Source: Candidatus Saccharimonadota bacterium
Lineage (GTDB): Bacteria > Patescibacteriota > Gracilibacteria > BD1-5 > UBA6164
NCBI GenBank assembly: GCA_965229705.1
Contig: OZ245922.1
Coordinates: 480,001 to 512,000, forward strand
Direction of reading: 5' to 3'
Length of the DNA: 32,000 nt
Shown: one piece after another, positions 5,790 to 31,198 of the stretch
Layout of the letters: every line of letters begins with the position of its first letter
How positions within the stretch are numbered: the stretch's first letter is position 1
The notes under the pieces: model-generated
Database searches by the model: none
Told to the model about the DNA's origin: nothing
What the model saw: the letters and a program-made list of their open reading frames with translations, nothing else
Made by a program: the position numbers and the translations under genes

Positions 5790-6980
5790 TTACTTTATAT
5801 CAAATATCTCCAAAGACTCTCATATAAGTCTTCCCTCTTCATTTATATATACATGCGTTCCAAAGTATGATAGGAGAGCCATATCATCATCCTTGATTGG
5901 GTTGATGTAGAGTTGTTTTCCATCGTCTAGATTCTCCTCCGCGCGAACTCTATAGAGTAAGAGTTCCTCTGTCGTTAAGTTTTCTACAAAGAGTATATAG
6001 TCATATTGAGCAATATCAAATACATATTCATTTCCTGTTTTTTCACTACTGAGTGAAAGCTCTGCATCATCTTGCAAATATCAAATAGCTGGCTGAGAAG
6101 ATATTCCTTCTCTTTTTTCTGTCATGATAAGCTCACGAGTAGCATTATATCTATCTTTATCTACCCTGTAAAGTACCAAACGATACTCTTGATCAAACTC
6201 AAGGTACAAAAGAACCTCAGAAAGAGAATCTTTTGAAAGTTTTCCATAGACGCTGTCAGTATTATTACTGTTTTCCTCAATGTATGATCACAACTCATCA
6301 TGCGACCAAAAAATATTATACAAACCAGAGTCAGAAGTAATAAAACCATACATCTCTAGACGAGCGTTAACATCATTATCAATATATGCATCTGGATAAT
6401 ATGTTCATATACTTGATCCAACTGTATAATCATCACTATTAAAATTATCATCTACACCGTCAGAGCTAAGATATGCCTGTGATCAAATATCTATCTGTGT
6501 TCCTGCACTATCTGCAAATACGGCGCTGAGCTCATTTTGATTCACGCTCACATAATATCCATCATACTGTGCAAAAGCAATATCCGTAAAATCATCTTTA
6601 AAAAGAATTTTAAGGTCTTTTCACTGATGAACCTGAGAAGAGAGACAATACAAAGAATCGTTTTCTCGCGCAAGAGATGTTGATATTCCAGGTGTCACGA
6701 TAGGACTCGCATTCAAAACGGGTGTTGAGAGCGTAACAGACTGTGGACAAGAAATATTATCTACAAATCATCATCCATCACCATTGATTTCACGAGAGTA
6801 TTTAAAAGAAAGTTCTGCCTTAGTCTTAATAATATTAATGATTGTTTTTGATATCTGTTCAACACGAAAACTCCTACTAAGCTCTAATGATATATTGAGA
6901 ATCACGTCAGCAATAAACACTGAAAGCGTTACAAGCATCAATGTATAAACCAGAACTGTTGCTGCACTATTACGAACCAT
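5790..6980 (-). CDS. Membrane-anchored hypothetical protein, possibly a PilX-like minor pilus component
   Basis: A single frame runs from 6980 to TAA at 5790 with about nine in-frame TGA and no TAA or TAG. The hydrophobic N-terminus is MVRNSAATVLVYTLMLVTLSVFIADVIL. It starts 3 nt after the stop of the upstream pseudopilin gene. Confidence 0.5.
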
Positions 6981-6983
6981 ATG

Positions 6984-7598
6984 CTAAAAAGAAAGAGTAT
7001 AATATTTGAGGTCATCTTGCGGGAGTTCATCCCAAGAAGTATCTTCATAATCAGGAGAAAAGAAGGTAAATATTTCTAAAAATAGATCAACAATATCTCC
7101 ATTATTATAGGGAGTAAGTTGCATATTTTTTATAAAAAAATCTTCTAATACTTTATCTTTTTGAAATACAAGATTATAAGGAGATGCTGGGTTACTACTA
7201 TCTGTAAGAGCATCAAACTCTGTCTGTGAGAGACTTCGATACCCAAAAACCGTTTTTTTATATATCCCTGCATCACTCTGAGAAACAAGTGTGTAGGTAT
7301 CCATATCTACAATTCAAAACATAATCCCTCCTGAAATCCCTGGACTCGTAATGAGACCAATATCAGAGATATCTCACAGATTATCTTGTAAAACAGATAT
7401 ATTTCAAGTATTAAATACTGAACTAAAAGCATAAAAATCTCTCAGAAATTTTGCCTCTATTTGCGCCTCAATTCAACGAGAGGTACTACTACTCATAAGA
7501 TAAAAAATTGTTCCAAGTACGAGAGCCGATATCACAACTGCTACTATCAATTCTATCAGAGTATAGGCTCTTGTATTTTCGCAATAAAACTTCTGCAT
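6984..7598 (-). CDS. Protein with a prepilin-type N-terminal domain (minor pseudopilin)
   Basis: The N-terminus is MQKFYCENTRAYTLIELIVAVVISALVLGTIF, a class-III signal-like motif with Glu at +5. The frame is open through TGA down to TAG at 6984. Confidence 0.65.
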
Positions 7599-8586: not shown

Positions 8587-9486
8587 TTAGTTTTCTAGGG
8601 CTTCAATTCTTGCTTTGAGCTCTTCTATTTGGTTTTGTTGTTCTTTCACAGCTTCAAGTAACACGGCACTAAGTTTGCCATAATCAACGGACTTATAACC
8701 CTCATCATCACTACTAACGATTTGGGGATACACCGTTTCAACTTCTTGAGCGATAACTCCAATTTGTTGACTCTGATCTTTATCGGTATCTTTCCAGTTA
8801 TAGGTTACTCCTCGAAGTTTTTGTAGGTTTGCGAGTGGGTTTTGGAGTTTGGTAATATCGGTCTTGTAACGAGCGTCTGAGGTAGTATAACCACTAGTGA
8901 ATCGCGCTTTACCCGTTACATCCAGTTTATAAGAGGGATTTCTGTTCCCGATTCCAACGTTTCCATCAGTATACACCGCATCATCAGTATCGTCACCATC
9001 GACAAATTTACCGTTAGCAACGCTCGCTGAACTCCAATCTGGAGCTGTAGAGCTCCCTGGACAATTTCCGACACAAGAAGTAGAAATACTTTCTGAACGA
9101 ATACCTCACGCTACATCCAAGAGTTCTTTAGGAGAACTCGTTGATATTCATATATTCCCGGATACCTCATAAATACTTGTAGGCTGAAATATTGAGCCAT
9201 CAAACATTACTAAACTGTCAGTATCTCATGAACTGAACTCATCAAGTATTTTTAAAAAGACATTTCCTATTTTCCCATCTGTTCCAAATACCTTTGCAAT
9301 GATTTCTCACAGTTTTCCTTTTTGTTCTGCCTGAGTTGTTGGCAAGTTTGGATTTACTTGTTGCATATCATTGATACGAGGCTTTGTGAGATCAAAGTCT
9401 TGTTGCGTATCAGCAGCATATGAAAGAGGATTCGATACATGTACCACAAGAGTGCTAACGATACAAAGTGATAATAATAGTTTCAT
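8587..9486 (-). CDS. Secreted protein with a C-terminal peptidase-S74 / tail-fibre intramolecular chaperone domain
   Basis: The signal peptide is MKLLLSLCIVSTLVVHVSNPLSYAAD. The C-terminus reads SDARYKTDITKLQNPLANLQKLRGVTYNWKD...IGVIAQEVETVYPQIV...VDYGKLSAVLLEAVKEQQNQIEELKARIEALEN, which is the typical S74 pattern. The length is 900 nt, in frame with track ORF 8587-8976. Confidence 0.8.
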
Positions 9487-9513: not shown

Positions 9514-10189
9514 TTACTTTATTATATAAAATAGAGATTCTTCCGTTGTCTCAAAATCAATAATATTATTTTGGATAGTATTGGGAGTAAAGTGAGAATC
9601 ATTTGTCTCTCCAGAAAGACTTTCTGGGTTGGTAATACTTGTTCCATCATTACTAAAATCATCATTCTCGGTTGGAGACTCTGACTGATTTTCTACATCA
9701 GCATAGATGTCAAAAGCTATCCCCTCAAAATTTTGGAATCATAGATCTTCACTATATCCATAACCATAAAGTTGCCCATCATCAAGACAGTAATACACAA
9801 AAGTATTATTATCAAAATCAAAATCTATAATATTCGCTATAAGAATATCATCAGAGTTTATAGCCATATCCTGTTGTGCAGGCTGTTGTAGAACTGACAA
9901 TTCTTACATTTTCTCAGGCATTAGAAGACCAATCTGCTTGGAAATATCCAAAAATATCATCATAGTAAAACCCTGAGAAATAATTTCCAATCACTGCAGA
10001 GTTGTCTCAGAGATTATAATACTCTAGATTTTTATCAACAGAGATATAGCTATTACTTGAACCTTTTCATGTAGAAGTTTGAGCAGAAAAAGACTCTCAA
10101 AGAGTATCCACGGCAAGTACTGGGGTATCTATCATAAAAAGAGACAGAATAAAAAACGCAAGGATTTTTTGAGTCTTTTTTTGTCTCAT
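9514..10189 (-). pseudogene. Secreted 'GYGYSE'-repeat protein split by an apparent frameshift near 9857 (a genuine frameshift or an assembly indel)
   Basis: Frame 1 (10189-9809) reads MRQKKTQKILAFFILSLFMIDTPVLA...CTTGYGYKL and then four TGA in 15 codons before TAA TAA. Frame 2 (9867-9514) reads ..NSDDILIANIIDFDFDNNTFVYYCLDDGQLYGYGYSEDLGFQNFEGIAFDIY.. Removing one A from the run at about 9857-9859 joins the two frames. Confidence 0.5.
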
Positions 10190-11209: not shown

Positions 11210-11243
11210 CTATAGGTAGTTTGATTTTTATATATTTCGTATT

Positions 11244-12179
11244 ATGTCAGAAAATAAAAAAATAAACCTCTCTGCTCTTTCTCCTCAGTATAAGAAAGAT
11301 GAAAGTATCGTTGAGAATACTCCCTCTCTTGACGCGAAAAATTCTCTATCAAAAGAAAATCTCAAAAACAGTACGGAAAATGATACTGTAAAAACGCCAG
11401 AGACTTCTTCACCTTCTGTAAAAATCTCTCTTTGAAACATTAAGAGTCCTCAAAAAAATGAAAAGCAAGATACAGAGAAACAACAGACTTCAAAAAATTC
11501 TGTAAAAAATGATACTGCAGAAGACGCTCTTCAAGAAAATAAAAGTCTCAAAATTTCTGTGTGAGAAATACAATCAAAAAACCAAAAAGAAAGCACTTGA
11601 TGAGAAAATGCAGAAGAAAAGACGCATACTCTTGCTGAAAATACTCAACACACAGAACAAGCGCAAAGCACTACACAGACTCCCACTCCCCTCTCTCTTT
11701 CAAAAAAATGATCTGCAAGTACAGATAATCAAGATACAGCTCAGCAAGAAACACCAGAAGAGAAATTTGATAACTATGAGTCAAGTTTTGAGAAACAATC
11801 AAATAAGATCAAGCATCGTTTGAAGCATTTTGAGTATAAAAAATATACTCCTTTACGGGCATGATTTACTATTGCTTTTTGTCTGACTGTTATATTTTGA
11901 GGTGTTACTGTCTCATGGCAAAATGGGTATATTCCTGAAAAGTATACTGCCAGTATTATGCGCATGTACTCTGAATCAGAAAATGCTCAAGAAATCGTCA
12001 ATACTCTTTCAGATACTGCATCTCAGATAGGAGAACAAACTCGAGGAATACTATGAGTAAGTTTATACAGTAAGCATGAAAAACTAAAAGATCATCTTAT
12101 AGAAAAACACAAGCAAGAACAGGAAGAAATCAAAAAACAAAAAATCAAAGATCATTTGATTGCGACATATTCGAGTTAA
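11244..12179 (+). CDS. Low-complexity (K/E/Q/T/S-rich) single-pass membrane protein, function unknown
   Basis: One frame runs from 11244 to TAA at 12177-12179 through about 10 TGA. It has one hydrophobic helix, RA(G)FTIAFCLTVIF(G)GVTVSW, and lies between a pilin gene and the pilin-FISUMP array. Confidence 0.6.
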
Positions 12180-12240
12180 GAGGAGTTCTGAAAAATGAAA
12201 ATTTTCTAAGCCTCTCTGGCTCTATCGAGTTCTGATTATG

Positions 12241-12271
12241 AACACCGGGCTTCAGCCCGGTGTTGTTTTTT
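12241..12271 (+). terminator. Intrinsic terminator hairpin
   Basis: The sequence is aacaccgggc-ttca-gcccggtgtt followed by gtttttt. Confidence 0.6.
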
Positions 12272-12296
12272 GGGTGTTTGAGAAAGCTCTGAGTTT

Positions 12297-12332
12297 CAAA
12301 CCCGGGGTATCATACCCCGGGTTTGTTTTTTT
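12297..12332 (+). terminator. Second intrinsic terminator hairpin
   Basis: The sequence is caaacccgggg-tatcata-ccccgggtttg followed by ttttttt. Confidence 0.6.
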
Positions 12333-12393
12333 GAGAAGAACTATATCCACACACAAGATTCTTTCTTGAGTCAACGAAAAAACTCTTGTTCTA

Positions 12394-12441
12394 TTGTATT
12401 TTCGTGAAAAAGAAGTATTTTTCTCTTGGAAAATACTTTCT
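12394..12441 (+). promoter_or_regulatory. Candidate promoter plus conserved inverted repeat upstream of pilin-FISUMP copy 1
   Basis: TTGTAT (12394-12399) is followed by 16 nt and TATTTT (12416-12421). It overlaps the inverted repeat agaagtattttt-ctcttgg-aaaatactttct. The same architecture precedes all four copies. Confidence 0.35.
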
Positions 12442-12454
12442 TAATTATTTCTTT

Positions 12455-13888
12455 ATGAAGCCATCTTTCTTAAAAAAAACTCAGGGTTTTACTCTGGTAG
12501 AACTGATCACGGTAGTGACAATCCTCGCTGTACTCTCTGCTATAGGATTTGTCTCTTTTTCTGGGTATCTCGCAGGAGTACGAGATACCAATAGACTCTC
12601 ACAGCTCACATCTATCTATGACGGTTTAGAGCTCTACGCGACAAAGTATGATCTCCCTATGCCTGATGACGCTGTAGAGATACAAGACGGATCGAGTCTC
12701 TTAGGATACCAAGGAAATATTGGAGCAAATATCCTCGATATCCTCGACTTTAGTCGAGGAGGAGTTGATCCAAAAGATGATTCATATTTTGTGTATTATC
12801 TCTCTGCAGATAAAAGTGATTTTCAGCTTATGGCGTTTCTCGAGGAAGAACAAAATGTTCCAACGGTATTTTTTCCTCAAGCTTATGCAGAAAAAGACTA
12901 TAGCAATCTTTATCCAGTCGTATTTGGAGAAAAGTTAGGAATACTCCTTGATGAGACAACGAAAACTCCAGTCCATGAGATAGAGGCAGTCAAGACTGCT
13001 GGAGCGTTAGATTTAGATGGAAGCACGGAGAGTTATACTGCCTACTTTAAAAATGATGATACCGCAACGGATACAGGAGAAAATCTGTGAGAGACGATAG
13101 AGGAGGAGAGAGAGGAAGGGACGAGTAGTTCGAGTGTTTCGAGTAGTTCAACTACTGCTTCTACTGCGCCTACTGATTGGAGAGATCAAGACCCAAACTG
13201 TGACAGAGCAGATGTGACTATCTGAACACAAACTTGGGCATGATGTAACTCGACTCTGGGAACATGATTTGAGTTTTGACAAAAAGATGCGGATATAGGA
13301 ACGAATAATTATAGTGGATCGGTAGGTAGTTGTTACAACTATAACGGAAACAATTCCGCCACTTGTATCAAGTGAGACATAACGATGGCGAGTACCTCTA
13401 AAGCCAATGATTGGTTTACCGGAACGAATAATGATGGAGATACTGCCGTAGATAATATATGGGGAAAGTTCTACACTTGGGATTCTCTCGATACTGATAA
13501 TGATGATGATATAGACGCAAATGATACCAACCTCGTCTGTTGAGTGTGATACCATGTACCAAGTGAACTCGAATGGGAAACACTGGAAGAATACTTGAAT
13601 GGATCAGCTTGTAGAACTACAAGTAATTGACAATGCGACTGACAGTGATGGCAGTACCACTCAACGACTAATAGTGATAGCAGTATTGCTGCTCTCCTAC
13701 AGATTCCTTTGAGTGGTTGGAGGAGTAATAATACATTCAATAGTCGTGGGTACTATGGGTATCTATGGTCTAGTACGGTAAATGGATCTGAGGCTTATAG
13801 GAGAGGATTCAGTAATCTCTATACTACTGTTGATAGTAACAATCGTACACAATCGAATTGATATTCAGTCAGATGTATCAAGGATTAG
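12455..13888 (+). CDS. Type IV pilin N-terminal module fused to a FISUMP (Fibrobacter succinogenes major paralogous, TIGR02145-like) domain, copy 1
   Basis: The protein starts MKPSFLKKTQ-G|FTLVELITVVTILAVLSAIGF, followed by a 211-aa TGA-free pilin module and a boundary TGA (13088-13090). The linker is ETIEEEREEGTSSSSVSSSSTTASTAPTDW. The FISUMP part reads VTI(G)TQTWA(G)CNS...IWGKFYTWD...C(G)V(G)YHVPSELEWETLEEYL...LWSSTVNGS...SN(G)YSVRCIKD, ending at TAG 13886-13888. Confidence 0.9.
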
Positions 13889-13894
13889 GTATAA

Positions 13895-13925
13895 AATCCC
13901 GGGCTTCAGCCCGGGATTGTTTTTG
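13895..13925 (+). terminator. Intrinsic terminator after copy 1
   Basis: The sequence is aatcccgggc-ttca-gcccgggatt followed by gttttt. Confidence 0.65.
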
Positions 13926-13951
13926 GGGATTGCTCTGTACTCTAGAGAAAG

Positions 13952-14040
13952 CTCTGAGAAACAAAAAATTTCTCATCCTCTCTGGCTCTCACGAGCCATC
14001 TCTCCTTTGCAAAAGGAGAGAGAAAAGGAGTTTCTCAGAG
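13952..14040 (+). repeat. Structured intergenic repeat ('E element'), complete copy
   Basis: The outer stem is ctctgagaaac/gtttctcagag. It encloses the hairpins ggctc-tcac-gagcc and tctctcctt-tgca-aaggagaga. Confidence 0.7.
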
Positions 14041-14145
14041 CCTGTTTAACCCCGGGGTTGTTTTTTTAAGAAGAACTATATCCACACACAAGATTCTTTC
14101 TTGAGTCAACGAAAAAACTCTTGCTCTATTGTATTTTCGTGAAAA

Positions 14146-14176
14146 AGAAGTATTTTTCTCTTGGAAAATACTTTCT
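14146..14176 (+). promoter_or_regulatory. Conserved inverted repeat upstream of copy 2
   Basis: This is the same sequence as 12411-12441, offset by 1735 nt. Confidence 0.3.
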
Positions 14177-14189
14177 TAATTATTTCTTT

Positions 14190-15629
14190 ATGAAGTCATC
14201 TTTCTTAAAAAAAACTTAGGGTTTTACTCTGGTAGAACTGATCACGGTAGTGACTATCCTTGCTGTACTTGCAGCTATAGGATTTGTCTCTTTTTCTGGG
14301 TATCTCGCAGGAGTACGAGATACCAATAGGCTTTCTCAACTTACATCTATCTATGACGGTTTAGAGCTCTACGCGACAAAGTATGATCTGCCTATGCCTG
14401 ATGACGCTGTAGAGATACAAGACGGATCGAGTCTCTTAGGATACCAAGGAAATATAGGAGCAAATATCCTCGATATCCTCGACTTTAGTCGAGGAGGAGT
14501 TGATCCAAAAGATGATTCATATTTTGTGTATTATCTCTCTGCAGATAAAAGTGATTTTCAGCTTATGGCATTTCTCGAGGAAGAACAAAATGTTCCAACG
14601 GTATTTTTTCCTCAGGCATATGCCGATAAAGACTATAGTAATCTTTATCCAGTCGTATTTGGAGAAAAGTTAGGAATACTCCTTGATGAGACAACGAAGA
14701 CTCCCGTTCATGAGATAGAGGCAGTCAAGACGGCTGGAGCGTTAGATTTAGATGGAAGCACGGAGAGTTATACTGCCTACTTTAAAAATGATGATACCGC
14801 AACGGATACAGGAGAAAATCTATGAGAGACGATAGAGGAGGAGAGAGAGGAAGGGACGAGTACTTCGAGTGTTTCGAGTAGTTCAACGACTGCTTCTACT
14901 GCTCCTACAGACTGGAGAGCTCAAGACCCAAATTGTGACAGAGCAGATGTGACTATCTGAACACAGACGTGGGCATGATGTAACTCGACGCTGGGAACAT
15001 GATTTGAGTTTTGACAAAAAGATGCGGATATAGGAACGAATAACTATAGTGGGACGGTAAGTAGTTGTTACAACTATAACGGAAACAATTTCACTTGTAT
15101 CAAGTGAGACATAACGATGGCGAGTACCTCTAAAGCCAATGATTGGTTTACTGGAACGAATATATATGGAGATACTGCCGTAGATAATATATGGGGAAAG
15201 TTCTACACTTGGGATTCTCTCGATACGGATAATGATAATGATATAGACGCAAATGATACGAACCTTGTATGTTGAGTGGGATACCATGTACCAAGTAGAG
15301 CAGAATGGGAAACACTCGAAGAATACTTGAATGGATCAAATTGTAGAACTTCAGACAGTGATAGTTTCCAGTGTAAATGACAGTGATGGACGTACCACTC
15401 AACGACTAATAGTGATACAAGTATTGCCTCAGTCCTCCAGATTCCTCTGAGTGGTTGGAGTAATAGTAGTAAAACATTCTATGGTCGTGGGTACAATGGG
15501 TCTCTATGGTCTAGTACGGTAAATGGATCTAATGCTTATAGAAGATATTTTGCGTATAATAATACCCAAGTCTATAGTGACGATGTTTCACAATCGAATT
15601 GACATTCAGTCAGATGTATCAAGGATTAG
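14190..15629 (+). pseudogene. Pilin-FISUMP copy 2, interrupted by a TAG nonsense codon at codon 10
   Basis: The gene reads ATG AAG TCA TCT TTC TTA AAA AAA ACT TAG GGT TTT ACT CTG GTA GAA. The TAG at 14217-14219 replaces the CAG (Gln) found in the other three copies. The rest of the 480-codon frame is intact through TGA codons down to TAG at 15627-15629. Confidence 0.7.
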
Positions 15630-15697
15630 GGATTTTTGAACGCCGGGGTGTAGCCTGGAGTTTTCTTTTTGGGGATTGCTCTGTACTCTAGAGAAAG

Positions 15698-15787
15698 CTC
15701 TGAAAAACAAAAAATTTCTCATCCTCTCTGGCTCTAAACTAGCCATCTCTCCTTTGCAAAAGGAGAGAGAAAAGGAGTTTCTCAGAG
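15698..15787 (+). repeat. E element, complete copy
   Basis: The architecture matches 13952-14040. The small hairpin variant is ggct-ctaaac-tagcc, and the outer stem has one A/C mismatch. Confidence 0.7.
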
Positions 15788-15794
15788 TCTGTTT

Positions 15795-15828
15795 AACCCC
15801 GGGGTATGATACCCCGGGGTTGTTTTTT
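15795..15828 (+). terminator. Intrinsic terminator hairpin
   Basis: The sequence is aaccccgggg-tatgata-ccccggggtt followed by gtttttt. Confidence 0.6.
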
Positions 15829-16035
15829 GGGTGTTTAGAGAAAAGAGAGAAAACAGTTTTCCCCTCCCTTACCAAGGGAGGGGCTAGGGGAGGGTTATAC
15901 TTCTAGAGAGAGTTCTGAGTTTAAGTTTGAACCCCGGGCTACAGCCCGGGGTTCAAACTTAAAACAGTATACAAAGCATACTTCATACCTTTTCGCAAGA
16001 GATATTTTTCGCTTTTTTTCAAAAAATCTATTAAC

Positions 16036-17310
16036 ATGAAAATAATATTAAGAAGTAGTAAAAATATGACAGTAAATGATAAATACTCTGAAGTATGAGA
16101 AATGAAAATGCAAGAAAATCTCTGAGATGTCGTAGAGTACGTTGCATCTATTTTTAAGAATGCTATAGATTTTTGAGCTTCTGATATTCATATAGAACCC
16201 ACACAGCACTTTTTGCTGATTCGTTTTCGACAAGATGGGGATTTTCACATGATTGATAAAGTACATCTTGATAACGCCTCTGCAATTATTACTAGACTCA
16301 AGGTACTCTCAAAAATCAAGATAGATGAAAATAAAAAACCTCAAGACGGAAAAATCGTATACGAATACGAAAACTCTCAAGATCACAGCAAAGAACATAT
16401 AGATATTCGTCTCTCCACTCTTCCAACAAATTATGGAGAAAAAATCGTGATGCGTATTCTCAAACAGGATGACTCTCTCACAAATATTGAAGCGCTCGGA
16501 CTCATAGATGTCAATGTAGAAAAAGTACGCGAAGCGCTCAAAAGTAAATATGGAATTGTATTAGTTGCTGGTCCAACAGGGTCAGGAAAATCAACCACGC
16601 TTTTTGGAGTTCTCAAACACTTTAATCCTCTCGAGTACAATATATCAACTCTCGAAGATCCAATAGAATACGATATTGAGTATGTAAATCAATCTCAGGT
16701 ACATCCATGAATTGATTATACCTTCGCCTCTGGACTGAGGAGTCTCGTACGTCAAGATCCCGATATCATTATGGTATGAGAAATCCGTGATAAAGAAACG
16801 GCAACTCTCGCTGTAGAAGCCGCACTTACTGGACACCTCGTACTTTCTACGATTCATACCAACTCTGCAACCGCAACAATTCAAAGACTTATTAATATGT
16901 GAGTAGAACCATTTTTGCTTGCAAGTGCTATGAAGATGGTTATATCTCAAAGACTCTGAAAAAGACTCTGTAAAAACTGTAAGGTTCCTGAAGAACTCAG
17001 TGATTTTAAGAAAAAAAAGGTACACTCATACCTTGATAGTATTATGGATCCAAAAGAAGTAGACTCTATTGTTTTCTATAAAGCTGAGTGATGTGAAGTA
17101 TGCCATAACTCATGATATAAATGACGACTCGGAATACATGAGGTACTGATAATAGAAGAATACATCGAACCCATGATCCTCGCAGAAGAAAGTGCTACCA
17201 GTATACAAAGAGAAGCAATGCAGCACGGCATGATCACTATTGTACAAGATGCTCTCTTAAAAGCAGCTATCTGAAATACGAGTCTTGATGAAGCATTTAA
17301 ACTTATTTAA
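16036..17310 (+). CDS. pilB: Type IV pilus assembly ATPase PilB/GspE family, short form, copy 1
   Basis: Motifs are [29 protein letters not shown](G)[16 protein letters not shown], and CxxC...CHNS(G)YK(G)RLGIHEVL. The length is 1275 nt, in frame with track ORF 16213-16710. Confidence 0.9.
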
Positions 17311-17315
17311 AAACT

Positions 17316-17642
17316 ATGTTTGGAAGAGGAAAAAAAGTAAATTTTAAAGATATAAAAAACTTTCGCGATGCCGTGAGAGCTATAAGATGATATATCTATC
17401 TTTCTGAGTGGGTCAAAGCAAATACTGCTATTACTGAACTAGAAGACAAAGAAAAAGCTGCCTTTGAGGAGCTAGAACATCATCTAAAAAATGATTATAC
17501 AGAACTACAAAAACAGAAAAAAAAGTACGAGAAAAATAGATCTGAGGCTTATAGGAGAACTTTTTGGCATGAGAGTACCAACGTCCTTAGTAACGATTCT
17601 CCACAATCGAATTGATTTTCAGTCAGATGTATCAAGGATTAG
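17316..17642 (+). pseudogene. Chimeric junction ORF: codons 1-76 of the PP2C/SpoIIE gene fused in frame to the last 32 codons of a FISUMP domain
   Basis: The product reads MFGRGKKVNFKDIKNF...KKKYEKNRS|EAYRRTFWHESTNVLSNDSPQSN(G)FSVRCIKD*. It diverges from the full-length gene after 'aatagatctg' (17544 versus 23174). The FISUMP copies carry 'aatggatctg' at the equivalent point. Confidence 0.7.
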
Positions 17643-17648
17643 GTATAA

Positions 17649-17678
17649 AATCCCGGGCTGAAGCCCGGGATTGTTTTT
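17649..17678 (+). terminator. Intrinsic terminator hairpin
   Basis: The sequence is aatcccgggc-tgaa-gcccgggatt followed by gttttt. Confidence 0.6.
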
Positions 17679-17705
17679 GGGGATTGCTCTGTACTCTAGA
17701 GAAAG

Positions 17706-17780
17706 CTCTGAGAAACAAAAAATTTCTCATCCTCTCTGGCTCTCACGAGCCATCTCTCCTTTGCAAAAGGAGAGAGAAAA
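17706..17780 (+). repeat. E element, 3'-truncated copy
   Basis: The 5' outer arm and both inner hairpins are present. The 3' arm is replaced by cggtgttcccctctc..., consistent with a deletion between gagagaaaa direct repeats. Confidence 0.6.
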
Positions 17781-17962
17781 CGGTGTTCCCCTCTCTTCGC
17801 GTATAAGAGACCAGTCTCGAAAATGAATGTTTGTTTGAGTCTTGAGTAGCAACCCCGGACTGAAAAACTCCGAGTTGCTTTTGTAAAAGAGCTATATTCA
17901 CACACTAGAGTCTTTGCTGAGTCAAGTAAAAATCCTGTAAGTCATTGCGTTTTCCACAAAAG

Positions 17963-17990
17963 GAAGTATTTTCCTCTTGAGAAATACTTC
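17963..17990 (+). promoter_or_regulatory. Conserved inverted repeat, with a candidate -10 box, upstream of copy 3
   Basis: The repeat is gaagtattt-tcctcttgag-aaatacttc, preceded by TTGCGT, 16 nt and TATTTT. Confidence 0.3.
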
Positions 17991-18004
17991 TTTAACATTT
18001 CTTT

Positions 18005-19453
18005 ATGAAGTCATCTTTCTGTAAAAAAACTCAGGGTTTTACTCTGGTAGAACTGATCACGGTAGTAACAATCCTCGCTGTACTCTCTGCTATAGGATTT
18101 GTCTCTTTTTCTGGGTATCTCGCAGGAGTACGAGATACCAATAGACTTTCTCAACTTACATCTATCTATGACGGTTTAGAGCTCTACGCGACAAAGTATG
18201 ATCTGCCTATGCCTGATGACGCTGTAGAGATACAAGACGGATCGAGTCTCTTAGGATACCAAGGAAATATTGGAGCAAATATCCTCGATATCCTCGACTT
18301 TAGTCGAGGAGGTGTTGATCCCAAAGATGATTCATATTTTGTGTATTATCTCTCTGCAGATAAAAGTGATTTTCAGCTTATGGCGTTTCTCGAGGAAGAA
18401 CAAAATGTTCCAACGGTATTTTTTCCTCAGGCATATGCCGATAAAGACTATAGTAATCTTTATCCAGTCGTATTTGGAGAAAAGCTTGGAATACTCCTTG
18501 ATGAGACAACGAAGACTCCTGTTCATGAGATAGAGGCAGTCAAGACGGCTGGAGCGTTAGATTTAGAGGGAGACACAACGAGTTATACTGCCTACTTTAA
18601 AAATGATGATACCGCAACGGATACAGGAGAAAATCTGTGAGAGACGATAGAGGAGGAGAGAGAGGAAGGGTCGAGTACTTCGAGTGTTTCGAGTAGTTCA
18701 ACGACTGCTTCTACTGCTCCTACAGACTGGAGAGCTCAAGACCCAAATTGTGACAGAGCAGATGTGACTATCTGAACACAGACGTGGGCATGATGTAACT
18801 CGACGCTAGGAGCATGACTTGAGTGGTGACAAACAGATGCGGATATAGGGACAAATAATTATAGTGGATCGGTAGGTAATTGTTATGATTATAATGGAAA
18901 CTACATAGATACAAGTAACTGTACTGCATGAGATATAACGATGGCAAGCAACTCAAAGGCTAATGACTGGTTTACTGGAACGAATAATAATGGAGATACT
19001 GCCGTAGATAATATATGGGGAAAGTTCTATACTTGGGATTATCTCGATACAGATAATGATAACGATATAGACGCAGATGATACGAACCTCGTATGTTGAG
19101 TGGGATACCATGTACCAAGTAACAGTGAATGGGAAACACTCGAAGAATACTTGAATGGATCAAATTGTAGAACTTGAAATGGTTACCAGTGTGACTGACA
19201 GTGATGGACGTACCACTCAACAACGAATAGTAATACAAGTATTGCCTCAGTCCTCCAGATTCCTCTGAGTGGTTATCGTACTGATCTTGATAATAAAACA
19301 TTCTATCATCGTGGGAGATATGGGTATCTATGGTCTAGTACGGTAAATGGATCTAAGGCTTATAGAAGAATGTTCACTTATAATAGTACCGAAGTCTATA
19401 GCGGCGATACTTCACAATCTGCTTGATATCCAGTCAGATGTATCAAGGATTAG
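18005..19453 (+). CDS. Pilin-FISUMP fusion, copy 3
   Basis: It starts MKSSFCKKTQ-G|FTLVEL. The pilin module is track ORF 18005-18640, with the boundary TGA at 18638-18640. The FISUMP domain contains 10 further TGA and ends ...SA(G)YPVRCIKD at TAG 19451-19453. Confidence 0.9.
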
Positions 19454-19459
19454 GTATAC

Positions 19460-19489
19460 AATCCCGGGCTGAAGCCCGGGATTGTTTTT
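19460..19489 (+). terminator. Intrinsic terminator hairpin after copy 3
   Basis: The hairpin is the same as at 17649, offset by 1811 nt. Confidence 0.6.
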
Positions 19490-19516
19490 GGGGATTGCTC
19501 TGTACTCTAGAGAAAG

Positions 19517-19591
19517 CTCTGAGAAACAAAAAATTTCTCATCCTCTCTGGCTCTCACGAGCCATCTCTCCTTTGAAAAAGGAGAGAGAAAA
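19517..19591 (+). repeat. E element, 3'-truncated copy
   Basis: It matches 17706-17780 at an offset of 1811 nt, with the loop variant tgaa instead of tgca. Confidence 0.6.
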
Positions 19592-19773
19592 CGGTGTTCC
19601 CCTCTCTTCGCGTATAAGAGACCAGTCTCGAAAATGAATGTTTGTTTGAGTCTTGAGTAGCAACCCCGGACTGAAAAACTCCGAGTTGCTTTTGTAAAAG
19701 AGCTATATTCACACACTAGAGTCTTTGCTGAGTCAAGTAAAAATCCTGTAAGTCATTGCGTTTTCCACAAAAG

Positions 19774-19801
19774 GAAGTATTTTCCTCTTGAGAAATACTT
19801 C
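19774..19801 (+). promoter_or_regulatory. Conserved inverted repeat upstream of copy 4
   Basis: It is identical to 17963-17990. Confidence 0.3.
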
Positions 19802-19815
19802 TTTAACATTTCTTT

Positions 19816-21264
19816 ATGAAGTCATCTTTCTGTAAAAAAACTCAGGGTTTTACTCTGGTAGAACTGATCACGGTAGTAACAATCCTCGCTGTACTCTCTG
19901 CTATAGGATTTGTCTCTTTTTCTGGGTATCTCGCAGGAGTACGAGATACCAATAGGCTTTCTCAACTTACATCTATCTATGATGGTTTAGAGCTCTACGC
20001 GACAAAGTATGATCTGCCTATGCCTGATGACGCTGTAGAGATACAAGACGGATCGAGTCTCTTAGGATACCAAGGAAATATAGGAGCAAATATTCTCGAT
20101 ATCCTCGACTTTAGTCGAGGAGGTGTTGATCCCAAAGATGATTCATATTTTGTGTATTATCTCTCTGCAGATAAAAGTGATTTTCAGCTTATGGCATTTC
20201 TCGAGGAAGAACAAAATGTTCCAACGGTATTTTTTCCTCAGGCATATGCCGATAAAGACTATAGTAATCTTTATCCAGTCGTATTTGGAGAAAAGCTTGG
20301 AATACTCCTTGATGAGACAACGAAGACTCCTGTTCATGAGATAGAGGCAGTCAAGACGGCTGGAGCGTTAGATTTAGAGGGAGACACAACGAGTTATACT
20401 GCCTACTTTAAAAATGATGATACCGCAACGGATACAGGAGAAAATCTGTGAGAGACGATAGAGGAGGAGAGAGAGGAAGGGTCGAGTACTTCGAGTGTTT
20501 CGAGTAGTTCAACGACTGCTTCTACTGCTCCTACAGACTGGAGAGCTCAAGATCCTAATTGTGACAGAGCAGATGTGACTATCTGAACACAGACTTGGGC
20601 ATGATGTAACTCGACGCTAGGAGCATGACTTGAGTGGTGACAAACAGATGCGGATATAGGGACGAATAACTATAGTGGGACAATAAGCGCTAATCAAGGT
20701 TGTTATAATTACGGAAATACTTCTTGAGTAGCTTGTACCAAGTGAGATATAACGATGGCGAGTACCTCTAAAGCCAATGATTGGTTTACCGGAACGAATA
20801 CATATGGAGATACTGCCGTAGATAATATATGGGGAAAGTTCTACACTTGGGATTCTCTCGATACGGATAATGATAACGATATAGACGCAAATGATACGAA
20901 CCTTGTATGTTGAGTGGGATACCATGTACCAAGTGAACTCGAATGGGAAACACTGGAAGAATACTTGAATGGATCAGCTTGTAGAACTACAAGTAATTGG
21001 CAATGCCACTGACAGTGATGGAAGTACCACTCAACGACAAATAGTGATAGGAGTATAGCAGCATTATTACAAATTCCTCTGAATGGTTATAGGAGTAGTA
21101 GTAGTAAAACATTCTATACTCGTGGGAACTATGGGTATCTATGGTCTAGTACGGTAAATGGATCTAATGCTTATAGAAGATATTTTTGGTATAATAGTAC
21201 CAACGTCGCTAGTGACGATGTTCCACAATCGTATTGACTTTCAGTTAGGTGTATCAAGGATTAG
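19816..21264 (+). CDS. Pilin-FISUMP fusion, copy 4
   Basis: The pilin module protein is identical to copy 3 (track ORF 19816-20451). The FISUMP domain is divergent and ends ...SY(G)LSVRCIKD at TAG 21262-21264. Confidence 0.9.
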
Positions 21265-21270
21265 GTATAA

Positions 21271-21300
21271 AATCCCGGGCTTCAGCCCGGGATTGTTTTT
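21271..21300 (+). terminator. Intrinsic terminator after copy 4
   Basis: The sequence is aatcccgggc-ttca-gcccgggatt followed by gttttt. Confidence 0.65.
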
Positions 21301-21327
21301 GGGGATTGCTCTGTACTCTAGAGAAAG

Positions 21328-21417
21328 CTCTGAGAAACAAAAAATTTCTCATCCTCTCTGGCTCTAAACTAGCCATCTCTCCTTTGCAAAAGGAGAGAGA
21401 AAAGGAGTTTCTCAGAG
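21328..21417 (+). repeat. E element, complete copy
   Basis: The outer stem ctctgagaaac/gtttctcagag is perfect. Otherwise it is identical to 15698-15787. Confidence 0.7.
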
Positions 21418-21665
21418 TCTGTTTAACCCCGGGGTATGATACCCCGGGGTTGTTTTTTGGGTGTTTAGAGAAAAGAGAGAAAACAGTTTTCCCCTCCCTT
21501 ACCAAGGGAGGGGCTAGGGGAGGGTTATACTTCTAGAGAGAGTTCTGAGTTTAAGTTTGAACCCCGGGCTACAGCCCGGGGTTCAAACTTAAAACAGTAT
21601 ACAAAGCATACTTCATACCTTTTCGCAAGAGATATTTTTCGCTTTTTTTCAAAAAATCTATTAAC

Positions 21666-22940: not shown

Positions 22941-22945
22941 AAACT

Positions 22946-26235: not shown

Positions 26236-26802
26236 ATGAAAAACATACAAAAAGGGTTTACCCTCGTGGAACTCATCGTCGTGATTACGATTCTTGCGAT
26301 TCTTGGTACTATTGCGTTTATCTCTCTTCAAGGACACTCTCAGGACGCAAAAAACTCTAAGGTAGCTTCAGATATCCGAAGTCTTGGTACTTCTGTTGAG
26401 ACAAAGCTTACTAACGGTTCTGTAACTCTTGGAACACTTGTGAGTGGTGATCTCTCATCCACAAACGCTGTAACAGGTACTTTTGGTGGTGCAACAAGTA
26501 CTCTTGGTACAGATGGGACATATAATGTTGGAACTCTCAACTTTGTTGGTCTCAAACAAAATGGTGAAGACTTTAAAGATAACTCTGGTAATGATTATAT
26601 TGCTGCTGTTGCTGTTGATGGAAGTGATAAGGCATACTACCAAATCGTTGGTCAAACTTCTAACCCAGATGGCAGCTATACTGCGGTTATAAAAGGAAAC
26701 TACTTTGCTGCCGATGCAAGTGATGTTGCTGGTCTTGTTTCAGCAAGTACTGATACTACTCCACTCACAAACAACGCTATTCACAAAGATGGTCTCTACT
26801 AG
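26236..26802 (+). CDS. pilA: Type IV pilin without a fused domain; probable major pilin
   Basis: It starts MKNIQK-G|FTLVELIVVITILAILGTIAFISLQG and has a Gly/Thr/Ser-rich C-terminal part. There is no in-frame TGA despite about 25 Gly codons. A strong terminator follows immediately. The track start at 26224 adds four residues (MFLY). Confidence 0.85.
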   Translation: MKNIQKGFTLVELIVVITILAILGTIAFISLQGHSQDAKNSKVASDIRSLGTSVETKLTNGSVTLGTLVSGDLSSTNAVTGTFGGATSTLGTDGTYNVGTLNFVGLKQNGEDFKDNSGNDYIAAVAVDGSDKAYYQIVGQTSNPDGSYTAVIKGNYFAADASDVAGLVSASTDTTPLTNNAIHKDGLY

Positions 26803-26812
26803 TATTTTTCTT

Positions 26813-26856
26813 GAAATACAAAAAAAACACCCTAAAGGTGTTTTTTTTTGTATTTC
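26813..26856. terminator. Bidirectional intrinsic terminator between convergent pilA and pilT
   Basis: The sequence is gaaatacaaaaaaaacacc-ctaaa-ggtgtttttttttgtatttc, a stem of about 19 bp with A/T tracts on both sides. Confidence 0.7.
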
Positions 26857-26865
26857 AGAGATTCT

Positions 26866-27948
26866 TTAATAGAGAGCCTCTTTTACTAGTTTCACATTAT
26901 TCGCAAACTTCATTCCTTCTTGAGCAGATATCTGATTTTTTGCTATAAGATCAACGATTTCATCTTCTAAGAGACACATACCTTCTTTTCGTCACATTTG
27001 CATAGTTGTCGGTATTTGGTGTATCTCATTTTCACGAATAAGGTTGGCAACGGCATCATTATTGAGCATGATTTCTTTTACCATCACTACTCCTGTTCCA
27101 TTAATATTTTTTAAGAGTCGCTGAGAAAATACGGCAATCAGAGAACTTGAGAGATTTTTTCGCATCTGATCTCTCTCTCCTTCAGGAAACACGTCAACAA
27201 TACGTGATATAGTCTGCGCTGCTCAACGGGTATGCAAAGTAGAAAGAACTAGTTGCCCAGTCTCTGCAAGAGTCAGTGCCATTTCTATCTCTTGGCGAGT
27301 CTTCATCTCTCAAAATAAGATAATATTTGGAGCCTGACGCATTGATCCTATAAGCGCTGTATTGTAGTCTGGAACATCTCTTCCTATCTCTTTTTGTTCA
27401 AAAATAGAATTCTTGTGACTATGCACAAACTCAATAGGATCCTCTATCGTGATAATATGCTTTTTTTGATACGTATTCACATAGTTGAGCATCGCTGCAA
27501 GAGTCGTTGTTTTTCATGATGATGTAGGACCTGTTACAAGTATGAGTCCATGTCCCCTATCCATAACATCTCTATAAATATCTGGAAGCCCAAGCTCGTC
27601 AAGGCTTGGTACTTCTGACTGAAGCAGCCTCAGCACTATCATGTACTCTCCCATCTGAAATGATATATTTCCTCGAAATCGTGAACCTCAAAAACTAAAT
27701 GCAAAATCAAGATTTTTATCTCGCAGGAGTTCCTCACGCTGTTTCTCGTCTATGATTGACTCTGTAAGTTCAAGAGTGTCTTGTGATGTCAGTTTTTTAA
27801 CTCACTCATCAACTGAAATGATTTCTCCAAATATCCTGATAGCTGGGTGTGTGCCTACTGTGAGGTACATATCACTCCCGTGATTATCTATCATCACATG
27901 GAGGAGTTGATCTCTGAGTATGTAGTCAGATCGTATTGCTGTATCCAT
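26866..27948 (-). CDS. pilT: Twitching-motility / pilus retraction ATPase PilT
   Basis: Motifs are MDTAIRSDY...GSDMYLTVG, Walker A LVTGPTSS(G)KTTT, HIITIEDPIEF, PNIILF(G)EM and LVLSTLHTR(G)AAQTISRIVDVFP. Track ORFs 26992-27192 and 27310-27492 are in the same frame. The stop is TAA at 26866. Confidence 0.9.
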
Positions 27949-30980: not shown

Positions 30981-31012
30981 ATAAAAAATATCTTATATAT
31001 CACTTAAGGAGT

Positions 31013-31102
31013 CTCTGAGAAATAAAAAATATCCAATCCTCTCTAGCTCTACCGAGCCATCTCTCTTTTTGCAAAAGGAGAGATGAAAGGAGTTTCTCAG
31101 AG
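31013..31102 (+). repeat. E element, complete diverged copy outside the pilin array
   Basis: The sequence is ctctgagaaat...agctc-tacc-gagcc...atctctcttttt-gca-aaaggagagat...gtttctcagag. It is followed by taagagaccggtctc, a module also found at 17805-17820. Confidence 0.65.
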
Positions 31103-31198
31103 GTTCCTTAAGGAGACTCTGAAAAATAGAAAAATCTTGTGTAAGAGACCGGTCTCAAGAAAATAAAAAGGAGCTTATCGGATCTTTCCTCAAAAAAA

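What the first reader, a model, noticed from the sequence alone, without database searches (positions are those of the whole stretch)
13952..14040. A conserved structured repeat of about 90 nt ('E element') follows the pilin-FISUMP genes and recurs between nusA and rplI
Complete copies lie at 13952-14040, 15698-15787, 21328-21417 and 31013-31102. 3'-truncated copies lie at 17706-17780 and 19517-19591, and a fragment lies at about 12190-12235.

All complete copies fold the same way on paper.
- An 11-bp closing stem, ctctgagaaac/gtttctcagag.
- A small hairpin, ggctc-tcac-gagcc.
- A 9-bp hairpin, tctctcctt-tgca-aaggagaga.

The diverged copy at 31013 keeps all three helices despite substitutions: agctc-tacc-gagcc, atctctcttttt-gca-aaaggagagat, and a U-G pair in the closing stem.

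In the array the element is boxed between two intrinsic terminators, so it could be a stand-alone small RNA. At 31 kb it lies in the opposite orientation to the flanking genes, which argues against a simple 3'-UTR element. It favours either an independently transcribed sRNA or a dispersed REP/MITE-like DNA repeat. I do not recognise it as any named RNA family. Such repeats may also supply the homology that drives the rearrangements of this locus.
Basis: seen in the sequence. Interest (0 to 1): 0.65.

Follow-up and report, generated by a model that had tools for sequence, protein, structure and literature searches.

The report
Small mobile palindromic repeat in Gracilibacteria
The 90-base "E element" is real, but it is best read as a small non-coding mobile DNA repeat scattered between genes of a tiny candidate-phylum bacterium and a close relative, not as a dedicated RNA gene.

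Summary
All seven copies sit at the stated coordinates, and the core 13-mer occurs 7 times against 0.06 expected by chance. Complete copies fold far better than shuffled sequence (z = -2.9 to -5.8).

The window comes from a roughly 1.0 Mb Gracilibacteria-type genome that reads TGA as glycine. The copies after the pilin-FISUMP genes are not independent: a 1.74-1.81 kb tandem cassette duplication carries them.

Independent copies exist elsewhere in the window and on four contigs of a related genome. They lie in unrelated intergenic spots, in both orientations, at about one locus per 8-10 kb.

Homology between copies starts and stops at terminal inverted repeats of about 16 nt (GGAGNCTCTGAGAAAC). 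Full copies are flanked by 4-nt repeats: TTAA/TTAA three times and TTAG/TTAG once.

The family is mosaic, with forms of about 100, 78, 68 and 150 nt.

The element is absent from matching sites. The nusA-rplI spacer is 14 nt in a syntenic relative and 218 nt here, and six of seven homologous pilin upstream regions lack it.

Covariation is weak, there is no Rfam match, and the array copies have no room for a promoter of their own.

Verdict: a previously undescribed MITE-like repeat, similar to the Neisseria Correia elements. An RNA role is unproven.

The parts
13942..14050 (+). Complete E copy of cassette A (core 13952-14040). Flanked by CTAG and TTAA. Lies between terminator-like hairpins at 13895-13918 and about 14044-14070.
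   Evidence: (130.8 bits)
15688..15797 (+). Complete E copy of cassette B (core 15698-15787). Hairpin 1 is weakened and the closing stem has an A.C mismatch.
   Evidence: 121.6 bits
21318..21427 (+). Complete E copy of cassette D (core 21328-21417). Lies inside the 3.5-kb segmental duplication 14057-17544 = 19685-23174.
   Evidence: (124.8 bits)
17696..17830 (+). Mosaic copy. It has the E 5' 75 nt (17706-17780), then a piece homologous to 15844-15866, then an E2-type core hairpin (GTATAAGAGACCAGTCTC). It has no 3' closing arm.
   Evidence: (77.3 bits)
19507..19641 (+). Duplicate of the mosaic copy, 99.6% identical to 17690-17960.
   Evidence: (77.1 bits)
12180..12242 (+). Decayed 5' fragment. 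It reads TTAA + GAGGAGTTCTGAAAAAT ... GGCTCTATCGAG and starts within the stop codon region of gene 11220-12179.
   Evidence: nhmmer E = 6e-9
31004..31111 (+). Independent complete E copy: TTAA, then 100 nt, then TTAA. It lies in the nusA-rplI spacer in the opposite orientation to both genes. Its inverted repeat extends to 20 bp.
   Evidence: (114.9 bits)
31112..31193 (+). E2, a sister element abutting E. It shares the E-type 5' end (GGAGACTCTGAAAAAT) but has a different core hairpin (GTAAGAGACCGGTCTC) and a decayed 3' end. It matches L011 11124-11207.
26799..26870 (.). Possible mini copy. It is a 19-bp A/T-rich palindrome between the convergent pilin and pilT genes, and its arm plus flank reads like an E 5' end (TTAAAGAATCTCTGAAATACAAAAAAAAAC on the minus strand). 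The match is weak.
   Evidence: (19 bits, E = 0.15)
12265..12300 (+). Spacer between two terminator-like hairpins that reads like the same spacer in the other cassettes without E (GAGAAAG CTCTGAG TTTCAAACCCGGGG). It may be an unoccupied or deleted site.
   Evidence: read directly from the sequence

Best explanation
**What it is.** E is one member of a mosaic family of short, non-coding, palindromic DNA repeats of MITE type. It lives in a Gracilibacteria-type genome (genetic code 25) and in a close relative.

**Anatomy.**
- The basic unit is about 100 nt.
- It is bounded by imperfect terminal inverted repeats of about 16 nt (GGAGNCTCTGAGAAAC).
- It is flanked by a repeated tetranucleotide of the form YTAR (TTAA, TTAG or CTAG).
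- Sister forms share the ends but swap or drop internal modules: E2 at 78 nt, a 68-nt fold-back mini form, and a 150-nt long form that joins the E and E2 cores.

**How it works (inferred).**
- Copies were inserted into intergenic DNA, mostly at the 3' ends of genes, probably by a DDE transposase supplied in trans. That transposase has not been identified.
- In this window one insertion, between the two terminators downstream of a pilin-FISUMP gene, was then multiplied passively by tandem duplication of the 1.74-1.81 kb cassette.
- The strong RNA fold is mainly a by-product of the inverted repeats and internal palindromes.
- Where a copy is read through, the hairpin could alter mRNA stability, processing or termination, as Correia, REP and RUP elements do.
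- The conserved copies and their purine runs give homology for recombination within the pilin array.

**Shown versus inferred.**
- Shown: dispersal, defined ends, flanking repeats, variants, and homologous sites without the element.
- Inferred: transposase-mediated mobility, and any effect on RNA or recombination.
For: **1. The array copies are not independent.**
- Cassettes repeat at 1735-1811 nt with 87-95% identity.

**2. Independent copies lie in unrelated contexts and both orientations.**
- Window: 31004-31111 (nusA-rplI, antisense to both genes) and 12180-12242 (after gene 11220-12179).
- Relative (ENA sample ERZ25074195):
  - L011 782-890, in a pilin 5' region;
  - L012 7393-7501, between smpB and serS, antisense;
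  - L012 2024-2108 and 8904-8976;
  - L038 12408-12516;
  - L040 682-767, 3564-3650 and 6232-6306, all between convergent genes.
- Sources.
- Density is about one locus per 8-10 kb.

**3. Sharp ends.**
- Homology of the 31-kb copy to the array copies spans exactly 31013-31102 against 13952-14040.

**4. Matching flanks.**
- TTAA/TTAA at window 31004, at L011 and at L038.
- TTAG/TTAG at L012 7394-7499. TTAG is not a palindrome, so this is a direct repeat and not part of the inverted repeat.
- CTAG/TTAA in the array copies.
- TTAA/TTAC in the long form.

**5. Length variants.**
- The variants share ends but differ inside.
- The E-TTAA-E2 tandem recurs at unrelated loci in both genomes.

**6. Sites without the element.**
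- The nusA-rplI spacer is 14 nt in the syntenic L023 and 108 nt, unrelated in sequence, in L013.
- The same spacer is 218 nt here, of which 186 nt are E, E2 and two flank copies.
- In the alignment of seven homologous pilin upstream regions, only L011_680 carries E.

**7. Narrow distribution.**
- The covariance model and nhmmer find nothing in loci from five more distant Gracilibacteria.

**8. Little sign of selection on an RNA fold.**
- Variable columns: 27% of paired against 41% of unpaired, p = 0.22.
- Hairpin 1 is defective in four of seven independent lineages.
- A G-to-A change in the closing stem recurs without compensation.

**9. No independent promoter, no known RNA family.**
- There is no space for a promoter between terminator T1 and E.
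- Rfam has no match.

**10. Transposases are present in the relative.**
- It carries an IS256-family element and an IS5-family element.
- The IS5-family element is flanked by CTAG/CTAG.
- A fragment 100% identical to the IS256 transposase lies on the source contig.
Against: - No autonomous element with the same inverted repeats was found. The similarity of E ends to the IS256-like ends is not significant after multiple tests, and the IS5-like element has different ends.
- TTAA and CTAG are palindromes, so most flanks could be read as the outermost bases of the inverted repeat. Only one copy (TTAG/TTAG) separates the two readings, and two copies have unequal flanks.
- The sites without the element are paralogous or diverged orthologous sites, not exact empty alleles.
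- Hairpin 2 pairs in all 13 aligned copies. Its only three changes are C-to-U opposite G, which keep pairing on the plus strand only. That is a hint of strand-specific constraint.
- Covariation exceeds shuffles modestly: 14 of 500 shuffles reach the observed score, and five pairs change on both sides.
- The rest of the roughly 1.0 Mb source genome could not be read, so the copy number is extrapolated.
Confidence: 0.72

Rival explanations
1. E is a functional structured RNA module. It would be either a multi-copy small RNA or a cis-acting element in 3' or 5' untranslated regions that controls stability, processing or termination of neighbouring mRNAs. Its spread as DNA would be secondary.
For: - The fold is very stable on the plus strand (z down to -5.8).
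- Hairpin 2 pairs in 13 of 13 copies, and its three substitutions all keep a G.U pair on the plus strand only.
- There is one clean compensatory change in hairpin 1 (GGCTC/GAGCC to GTCTC/GAGAC) and one in the closing stem.
- Most copies sit at gene 3' ends or between convergent genes.
- The element is rich in AAGGAG and CTCCTT motifs.
Against: - There is no Rfam match.
- Array copies have no room for a promoter.
- Orientation relative to flanking genes is mixed, about 3 to 3 among the first six independent copies.
- Hairpin 1 and the closing stem carry many uncompensated mismatches.
- Paired and unpaired columns vary at similar rates.
- Variants lacking hairpin 1, or hairpins 1 and 2, persist.
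- The covariation score is only slightly above the slid-partner controls: 0.074 against 0.03-0.05.
Confidence: 0.13
2. E is not mobile. It is a conserved recombination or terminator module of pilin cassettes, serving as a 3' homology anchor for gene conversion among pilin-FISUMP copies in the manner of the Neisseria Sma/Cla repeat. Copies elsewhere would come from ectopic recombination.
For: - The stretch from the last 60 nt of each gene through T1 to E is nearly invariant, while the C-terminal domains differ by 10-25%.
- The step from 89% to 99% identity between cassettes B and D falls at the T1/E boundary.
- A junction lies inside E at a 10-nt AGAGAGAAAA microhomology.
- One copy in the relative is also next to a pilin gene.
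Against: - Most copies in the relative lie next to unrelated housekeeping genes such as smpB/serS, CDP-alcohol phosphatidyltransferase and TPP enzymes.
- No copy was found after the three complete pilin genes on the relative's 14-kb contig.
- In L011 the element lies on the other side of the conserved pilin upstream block from its position in the window.
- Sharp ends with matching flanks are not expected from ectopic recombination.
Confidence: 0.1
3. The E core, read on the minus strand, is a relic of a cobalamin riboswitch, namely the B12 box plus the two preceding hairpins.
For: - Pattern scans with the E core hit only one coherent family. These are Patescibacteria loci L007/L010 and L009, which share TCTCTCC-loop-GGAGAGA-T-GGCTC-loop-GAGCC-AGAGAGG on the opposite strand.
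- That region scores as a Cobalamin riboswitch at 24.2 bits, E = 5e-4.
- It precedes a transcobalamin-like protein with an alpha-toroid domain and DUF4430.
Against: - E gives no Cobalamin or AdoCbl hit even at E <= 10, and it lacks the conserved aptamer core.
- The scan pattern itself forced 21.5 of the matching bases.
- The second hairpin then follows from the riboswitch's own structure.
- Given the very large number of riboswitch instances in the collections, one such match is expected by chance (my estimate, not a computed value).
Confidence: 0.02

Closest known systems
Correia repeat enclosed elements (CREE / nemis) of Neisseria
   Same: - Both are short, non-coding elements bounded by inverted repeats and flanked by a short duplicated target.
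- Both come in several discrete length classes made by internal deletion, including a short class with two identical ends.
- Both reach high copy numbers in intergenic DNA.
- Both show presence/absence differences upstream of paralogous surface-protein genes, and leave end fragments behind.
- Both form RNA hairpins when transcribed, and both are proposed recombination hot spots.
- CREE features are taken from PMC2649163.
   Different: - There is no sequence similarity.
- E has inverted repeats of about 16 nt against 26 bp in CREE.
- E flanks are 4-nt YTAR. CREE also duplicates its target (PMC2649163); that the duplication is a TA dinucleotide is from my own knowledge.
- E carries two internal hairpins.
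- No promoter, IHF site or RNase III cleavage has been shown for E.
- The host is a CPR bacterium with genetic code 25.
MITEs derived from IS5-family elements (4-nt YTAR target duplication)
   Same: - E has terminal inverted repeats starting GGAA/GGAG.
- E has 4-nt flanks that fit YTAR.
- An IS5-family element flanked by CTAG/CTAG lies in the related genome.
- The YTAR rule for IS5 is from my own knowledge.
   Different: - The IS5-like element found has unrelated ends (GCACTGTTGA...).
- No parent element with E-type ends was found.
REP/BIME, RUP, BOX and ERIC repeats of other bacteria
   Same: - All are dispersed intergenic palindromic repeats, often at 3' ends of genes.
- BIME and BOX are mosaic and modular, like the E family.
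- All can affect mRNA stability or termination (from my own knowledge).
   Different: - REPs are 20-40 nt units tied to a RAYT transposase and lack flanking duplications.
- E is a single unit of about 100 nt with inverted-repeat ends.
- No RAYT gene was seen in the sequence available.
Sma/Cla repeat downstream of Neisseria pilE/pilS
   Same: Both are a conserved non-coding block at the 3' end of each variable pilin cassette, and could serve as a homology anchor for recombination (from my own knowledge).
   Different: E is also found far from pilin genes, in both orientations, with transposon-like ends.

Membership tests
MITE (miniature inverted-repeat transposable element) | Short (under about 300 bp) with no coding capacity | tested here: met
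   Units are 68-150 nt and contain no ORF.
MITE (miniature inverted-repeat transposable element) | Terminal inverted repeats that define the ends | tested here: met
   An 11-bp perfect core sits within imperfect repeats of about 16 nt (13 of 16 matching at window 31004-31111). Homology between copies ends exactly there.
MITE (miniature inverted-repeat transposable element) | Target-site duplication flanking each copy | tested here: inconclusive
   Flanks are TTAA/TTAA three times and TTAG/TTAG once, but also CTAG/TTAA, TTAA/TTAC and TTAA/CCTT. Only the TTAG pair rules out the reading that the flanks are part of the inverted repeat.
MITE (miniature inverted-repeat transposable element) | Many dispersed copies in one genome | tested here: met
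   There are 4 loci in the 32-kb window and 8 loci in about 80 kb of the relative. The whole-genome count could not be made because the source contig cannot be retrieved.
MITE (miniature inverted-repeat transposable element) | Insertion polymorphism (occupied and empty homologous sites) | tested here: met
   The nusA-rplI spacer is 14 nt in L023 against 218 nt here. One of seven homologous pilin upstream regions is occupied. These are not strict alleles.
MITE (miniature inverted-repeat transposable element) | A related autonomous element with the same ends that supplies the transposase | tested here: not met
   The IS256-like and IS5-like elements in the relative have different ends. The search covered only about 110 kb, so this is not a genome-wide test.
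Any Rfam RNA family | Covariance-model score at or above the family's gathering threshold | tested here: not met
   There are no matches in the window at gathering thresholds. The best sub-threshold matches come from the flanking terminator.
Cobalamin riboswitch | Aptamer core plus B12 box recognised by RF00174 or AdoCbl models | tested here: not met
   No Cobalamin match at E <= 10 on either strand of 13880-14100. Only the B12-box-like 11-mer and two hairpins resemble L007/L009.
Stand-alone small RNA gene | Own promoter and terminator, consistent orientation, structure-preserving evolution | tested here: inconclusive
   Only 27 nt separate T1 from E, and no promoter-like site was found there. 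Covariation is weak. Expression cannot be tested with these tools.
Diversity-generating retroelement target signal | Reverse transcriptase nearby, and a template repeat differing from the variable repeat at adenines | tested here: not met
   No reverse transcriptase ORF was seen among the long ORFs of the window (not all were scanned against Pfam). Differences among pilin 3' ends are of all base types.

The most novel reading that the evidence does not exclude
The E family has been co-opted. Its always-paired polypyrimidine/polypurine hairpin 2 and inverted-repeat stem would act on the plus-strand transcript as a 3'-end processing or stabilising signal. The invariant T1-E block would be the homology anchor that lets the pilin-FISUMP cassettes exchange their variable lectin-like domains. 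That would amount to a surface-variation system in a host-dependent CPR bacterium, built on a domesticated MITE.
Probability: 0.1. Interest if true: 0.6.

Novelty: new member of a known kind. Interest (0 to 1): 0.3.

Why it matters
CPR bacteria such as Gracilibacteria have very small genomes and are usually described as streamlined. A repeat family at about one locus per 8-10 kb, roughly 1% of a 1 Mb genome if that density holds, shows that mobile non-coding DNA is active there.

Practical consequences:
- Such repeats break assemblies.
- They can be mistaken for RNA genes in motif screens.
- They sit next to the most variable surface genes, the pilin-FISUMP array that probably contacts the host cell. 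There they may promote duplication, deletion and domain exchange.

I found no paper describing such elements in this group.

Tried and rejected
**Collection scans**
- *TIR-only pattern, viral contigs.* It gave four chance hits with no internal homology.
- *Core pattern, genome and metagenome contigs.*
  - It returned only chance hits and a Patescibacteria family, which turned out to be a probable cobalamin riboswitch on the opposite strand.
  - The pattern was too strict. It would also have missed the true copies later found in the relative, so the lack of hits says little about distribution.
- *Further viral-contig scans.*
  - Two E-specific patterns found nothing.
  - A TIR-plus-flank pattern gave 13 hits, and none was E by the covariance model.
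  - Four contigs share GGAASCTCTGAAAAACCAAYTATC about 100-125 nt from a contig end. This was not resolved.

**Retrieving the source contig**

**Possible parent elements**
- IS256-like ends as the parent of the E ends: one 11-mer match, not robust against shuffles across 14 comparisons.

**Other readings considered**
- DGR-type mutagenesis of the pilin C-termini: no adenine-specific pattern.
- A tRNA-like reading of the L007/L009 region: ARAGORN results were inconsistent.
- Integron attC and IS200/IS605-type ends were considered from the sequence. They were dropped because the core sites and the paired subterminal hairpins are absent.

Full report
**Setting**

- The window has 36.5% G+C.
- Long open reading frames appear only when TGA is read as a sense codon: 14 ORFs of at least 150 aa under table 11 against 63 when TGA is sense.
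- In ribosomal protein L9 and in the FISUMP domain, TGA falls at conserved glycines. The code is therefore 25.
- The closest named relatives of the pilin proteins are Candidatus Gracilibacteria.
- The window's own proteins lie on a contig of 1,006,762 bp.
- Gene order, with Pfam support where tested and from synteny with L023:
  - type IV pilus genes;
  - four pilin-FISUMP genes at about 12.4-21.3 kb, plus a 3' remnant at 17534-17648;
  - a duplicated PilB-like ATPase;
  - then SpoIIE-like, PilC, a small pilin, PilT, a Na/Ca exchanger, rplI and nusA.

Yes.
- The repeat finder and a multiple alignment recover every copy at the stated coordinates.
- The most conserved 13-mer, CCTCTCTRGCTCT, occurs seven times. 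Shuffled sequence gives 0.06.
- Terminator-like hairpins flank the array copies.

Three corrections are needed.
- Hairpin 1 is weakened in two of the four complete copies, and it is mismatched at its first pair at 31013.
- The closing stem of the 15698 copy has an uncompensated A.C.
- The 'truncated' copies continue into another module rather than ending.

**How many independent copies are there?**

- The copies at 13952, 15698, 17706, 19517 and 21328 are carried by tandem cassettes of 1.74-1.81 kb that are 87-95% identical. This includes a 3.5-kb duplication, 14057-17544 = 19685-23174, which also duplicates the ATPase gene. They count as one insertion that was then amplified.
- Independent loci in the window are:
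  - the copy in the nusA-rplI spacer;
  - the decayed fragment at 12180-12242, right after the stop codon of an unrelated gene;
  - possibly a small palindrome at 26799-26870 whose arms read like E 5' ends.

**Copies elsewhere**

- Both scans of the large collections used a core pattern that proved too strict.
  - They found only a Patescibacteria family sharing a double hairpin.
  - That family is a probable cobalamin riboswitch on the other strand: RF00174 at 24.2 bits, E = 5e-4.
  - It lies upstream of a transcobalamin-like protein with DUF4430.
  - E gives no such match, so I treat the likeness as chance.
- Protein searches were more useful.
  - Pilin homologues led to contigs of a related, recoded genome with 34-35% G+C in ENA sample ERZ25074195.
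  - A transposase shared at 100% identity over 221 residues with the source contig led to two more contigs.
- A covariance model built from six copies, together with nhmmer, found the following:

| Locus | Coordinates | Strand | Context or form |
|---|---|---|---|
| L011 | 782-890 | + | inside a pilin upstream region |
| L012 | 7393-7501 | - | between smpB and serS |
| L012 | 2024-2108 | palindromic | 68-nt fold-back form |
| L012 | 8904-8976 | - | decayed core |
| L038 | 12408-12516 | - | full copy between convergent genes |
| L040 | 682-767 and 3564-3650 | - | long form; the two share a segmental duplication |
| L040 | 6232-6306 | - | mini form |

- No copy was found in loci from five more distant Gracilibacteria.

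**Anatomy**

- Homology between the 31-kb copy and the array copies spans exactly the inverted-repeat ends.
- Outside the array, the inverted repeat extends to about 16 nt (GGAGNCTCTGAGAAAC) and is bracketed by tetranucleotides:

| Copy | Left flank | Right flank |
|---|---|---|
| window 31004-31111 | TTAA | TTAA |
| L011 782-889 | TTAA | TTAA |
| L038 12408-12516 | TTAA | TTAA |
| L012 7394-7499 | TTAG | TTAG |
| array copies | CTAG | TTAA |
| long form (L040) | TTAA | TTAC |

- All of these except TTAC fit YTAR.
- The TTAG pair is a direct repeat, not an inverted one. This favours a 4-nt target duplication.
- The family is mosaic.
  - E2 is 78 nt. It has the same 5' end and the core hairpin GTAAGAGACCGGTCTC.
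  - E2 abuts E at window 31112-31193. An E2-like stretch follows the E copy on L038, and E2 stands alone on L011.
  - The long form joins the E 5' 75 nt to the E2 core.
  - The window's 'truncated' copies have a similar make-up, with a junction at a 10-nt AGAGAGAAAA microhomology.

**Sites without the element**

- In L023, which keeps the window's gene order, the nusA-rplI spacer is 14 nt.
- In L013 it is 108 nt of unrelated sequence.
- Here it is 218 nt. Of these, E (100), E2 (78) and two extra flank copies (8) make up 186, leaving 32 nt.
- In an alignment of seven homologous pilin upstream regions from both genomes, only one carries E. It sits between the conserved block and the start codon.
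- In the window's array, E lies on the other side of that conserved block.
- The spacer at 12265-12300 reads like the T1-T2 spacer without E.

**Is there selection for an RNA fold?**

- On six copies, 93.8% of cells pair. Three pairs change on both sides, and 13 cells are unpaired.
- On 13 model-aligned matches:
  - 92.4% of cells pair;
  - the covariation score is 0.074, against 0.03-0.05 with slid partners;
  - 14 of 500 shuffles reach the observed score.
- Among four independent copies, paired and unpaired columns vary at 27% and 41%, p = 0.22.
- Hairpin 1 is defective in four of seven independent lineages.
- A G-to-A change in the 5' closing arm recurs without compensation.
- Hairpin 2 is the exception. 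It pairs in every copy, and its three changes all give G.U on the plus strand. The numbers are too small to decide.
- Identity between copies of the two genomes (for example 88%) is no higher than within a genome (77-86%). By eye the neighbouring pilin upstream DNA looks similarly conserved; I did not compute that figure. The element therefore does not appear unusually conserved.

**Mechanism**

- The best-supported reading is a MITE-like family mobilised in trans, with later passive amplification in the pilin array.
- The relative carries an IS256-family element and an IS5-family element flanked by CTAG/CTAG. Neither has E-type ends, and the likeness to the IS256 ends is not significant. The partner transposase is therefore unknown.
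- Effects on transcripts and on recombination are inferred by analogy with Correia elements (PMC2649163). Those elements show the same combination of inverted-repeat ends, discrete length classes, presence/absence next to paralogous surface-protein genes, and RNA hairpins.

**Verdict**

- The feature is real and is a dispersed repeat. It is a new member of a known kind.
- The stand-alone sRNA reading is not supported, but it cannot be excluded without expression data.

Noticed in passing
window, whole length (e.g. 30528-30992, 17996-19453): TGA is a sense codon and aligns with conserved glycines, so the code is 25. The public protein collection translates this genome with table 4 (TGA = Trp), which puts W at glycine positions in its proteins.
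   Followed up: partly
window 12290-23174: The pilin-FISUMP array has four genes plus a 3' remnant at 17534-17648. An exact duplicate of the PilB-like ATPase gene is present (15925-17310 = 21555-22940), within a 3.5-kb segmental duplication at 95% identity. N-terminal halves of the pilins are nearly identical, while the C-terminal lectin-like domains differ by 10-25%.
   Followed up: partly
L007 5096-5265 (+), L009 about 6974-7140 (-), L010: A probable cobalamin riboswitch scores below Rfam's gathering threshold (24.2 against 31.5 bits) in Patescibacteria. It is followed by a terminator and a transcobalamin-like protein (alpha-toroid plus DUF4430), and lies about 3 kb from the tmRNA gene. It may be a divergent riboswitch variant that the curated cut-off misses.
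   Followed up: partly
L012 about 9790-9960 and L039 545-683: A second, unrelated repeat of about 165 nt has inverted ends CCTTAGGAAA(A/T)ACGGAAAAA. The two copies are 91% identical over 139 nt. The relative therefore hosts more than one small repeat family.
   Followed up: no
L011 11260-12567 and 12570-13434; L038 4626-5774 and 10001-11149; L040 10001-11149: An IS256-family element (382-aa transposase, 36-nt imperfect inverted repeats) is present in at least four copies in the relative. A fragment 100% identical over 221 residues lies on the source contig. Next to it on L011 is an 865-bp IS5-family element (DUF4096 plus DDE) flanked by CTAG/CTAG.
   Followed up: partly
window 13895-13918, 17649-17672, 19460-19483, 21271-21294: The terminator-like hairpin T1 after each pilin gene keeps its stem, but its loop is inverted between copies (CTTCAG against CTGAAG). 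This is what a flip of a palindrome's centre would produce.
   Followed up: no
window 12400-12440, 14140-14175; L011 2270-2350, 3690-3770: The pilin 5' leader carries one to four copies of a TTCTTAAT-like motif just before the start codon. In L011 the E copy is inserted at the first of them (TAC | TTCCTTAA), a sequence that also resembles the E 3' end.
   Followed up: partly
L026 97-120, L034 8000-8023, L035 116-139, L037 100-123: Four IMG/VR contigs of very different G+C share GGAASCTCTGAAAAACCAAYTATC preceded by TTAR. In each case it lies 100-125 nt from a contig end and points outward, which looks like the end of a multi-copy element that breaks assemblies. Its first 16 nt nearly match the E inverted repeat.
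   Followed up: partly
window 15830-15925 and 21460-21555: Downstream of terminator T2 in cassettes B and D lie further E-like scraps (AGAGAGAAAACAGTTTTCCCCTC and CTTCTAGAGAGAGTTCTGAGTTTAAG) and a G-rich hairpin (CCCCTCCCTTACCAAGGGAGGGG). The intergenic DNA here is a patchwork of repeat fragments.
   Followed up: no
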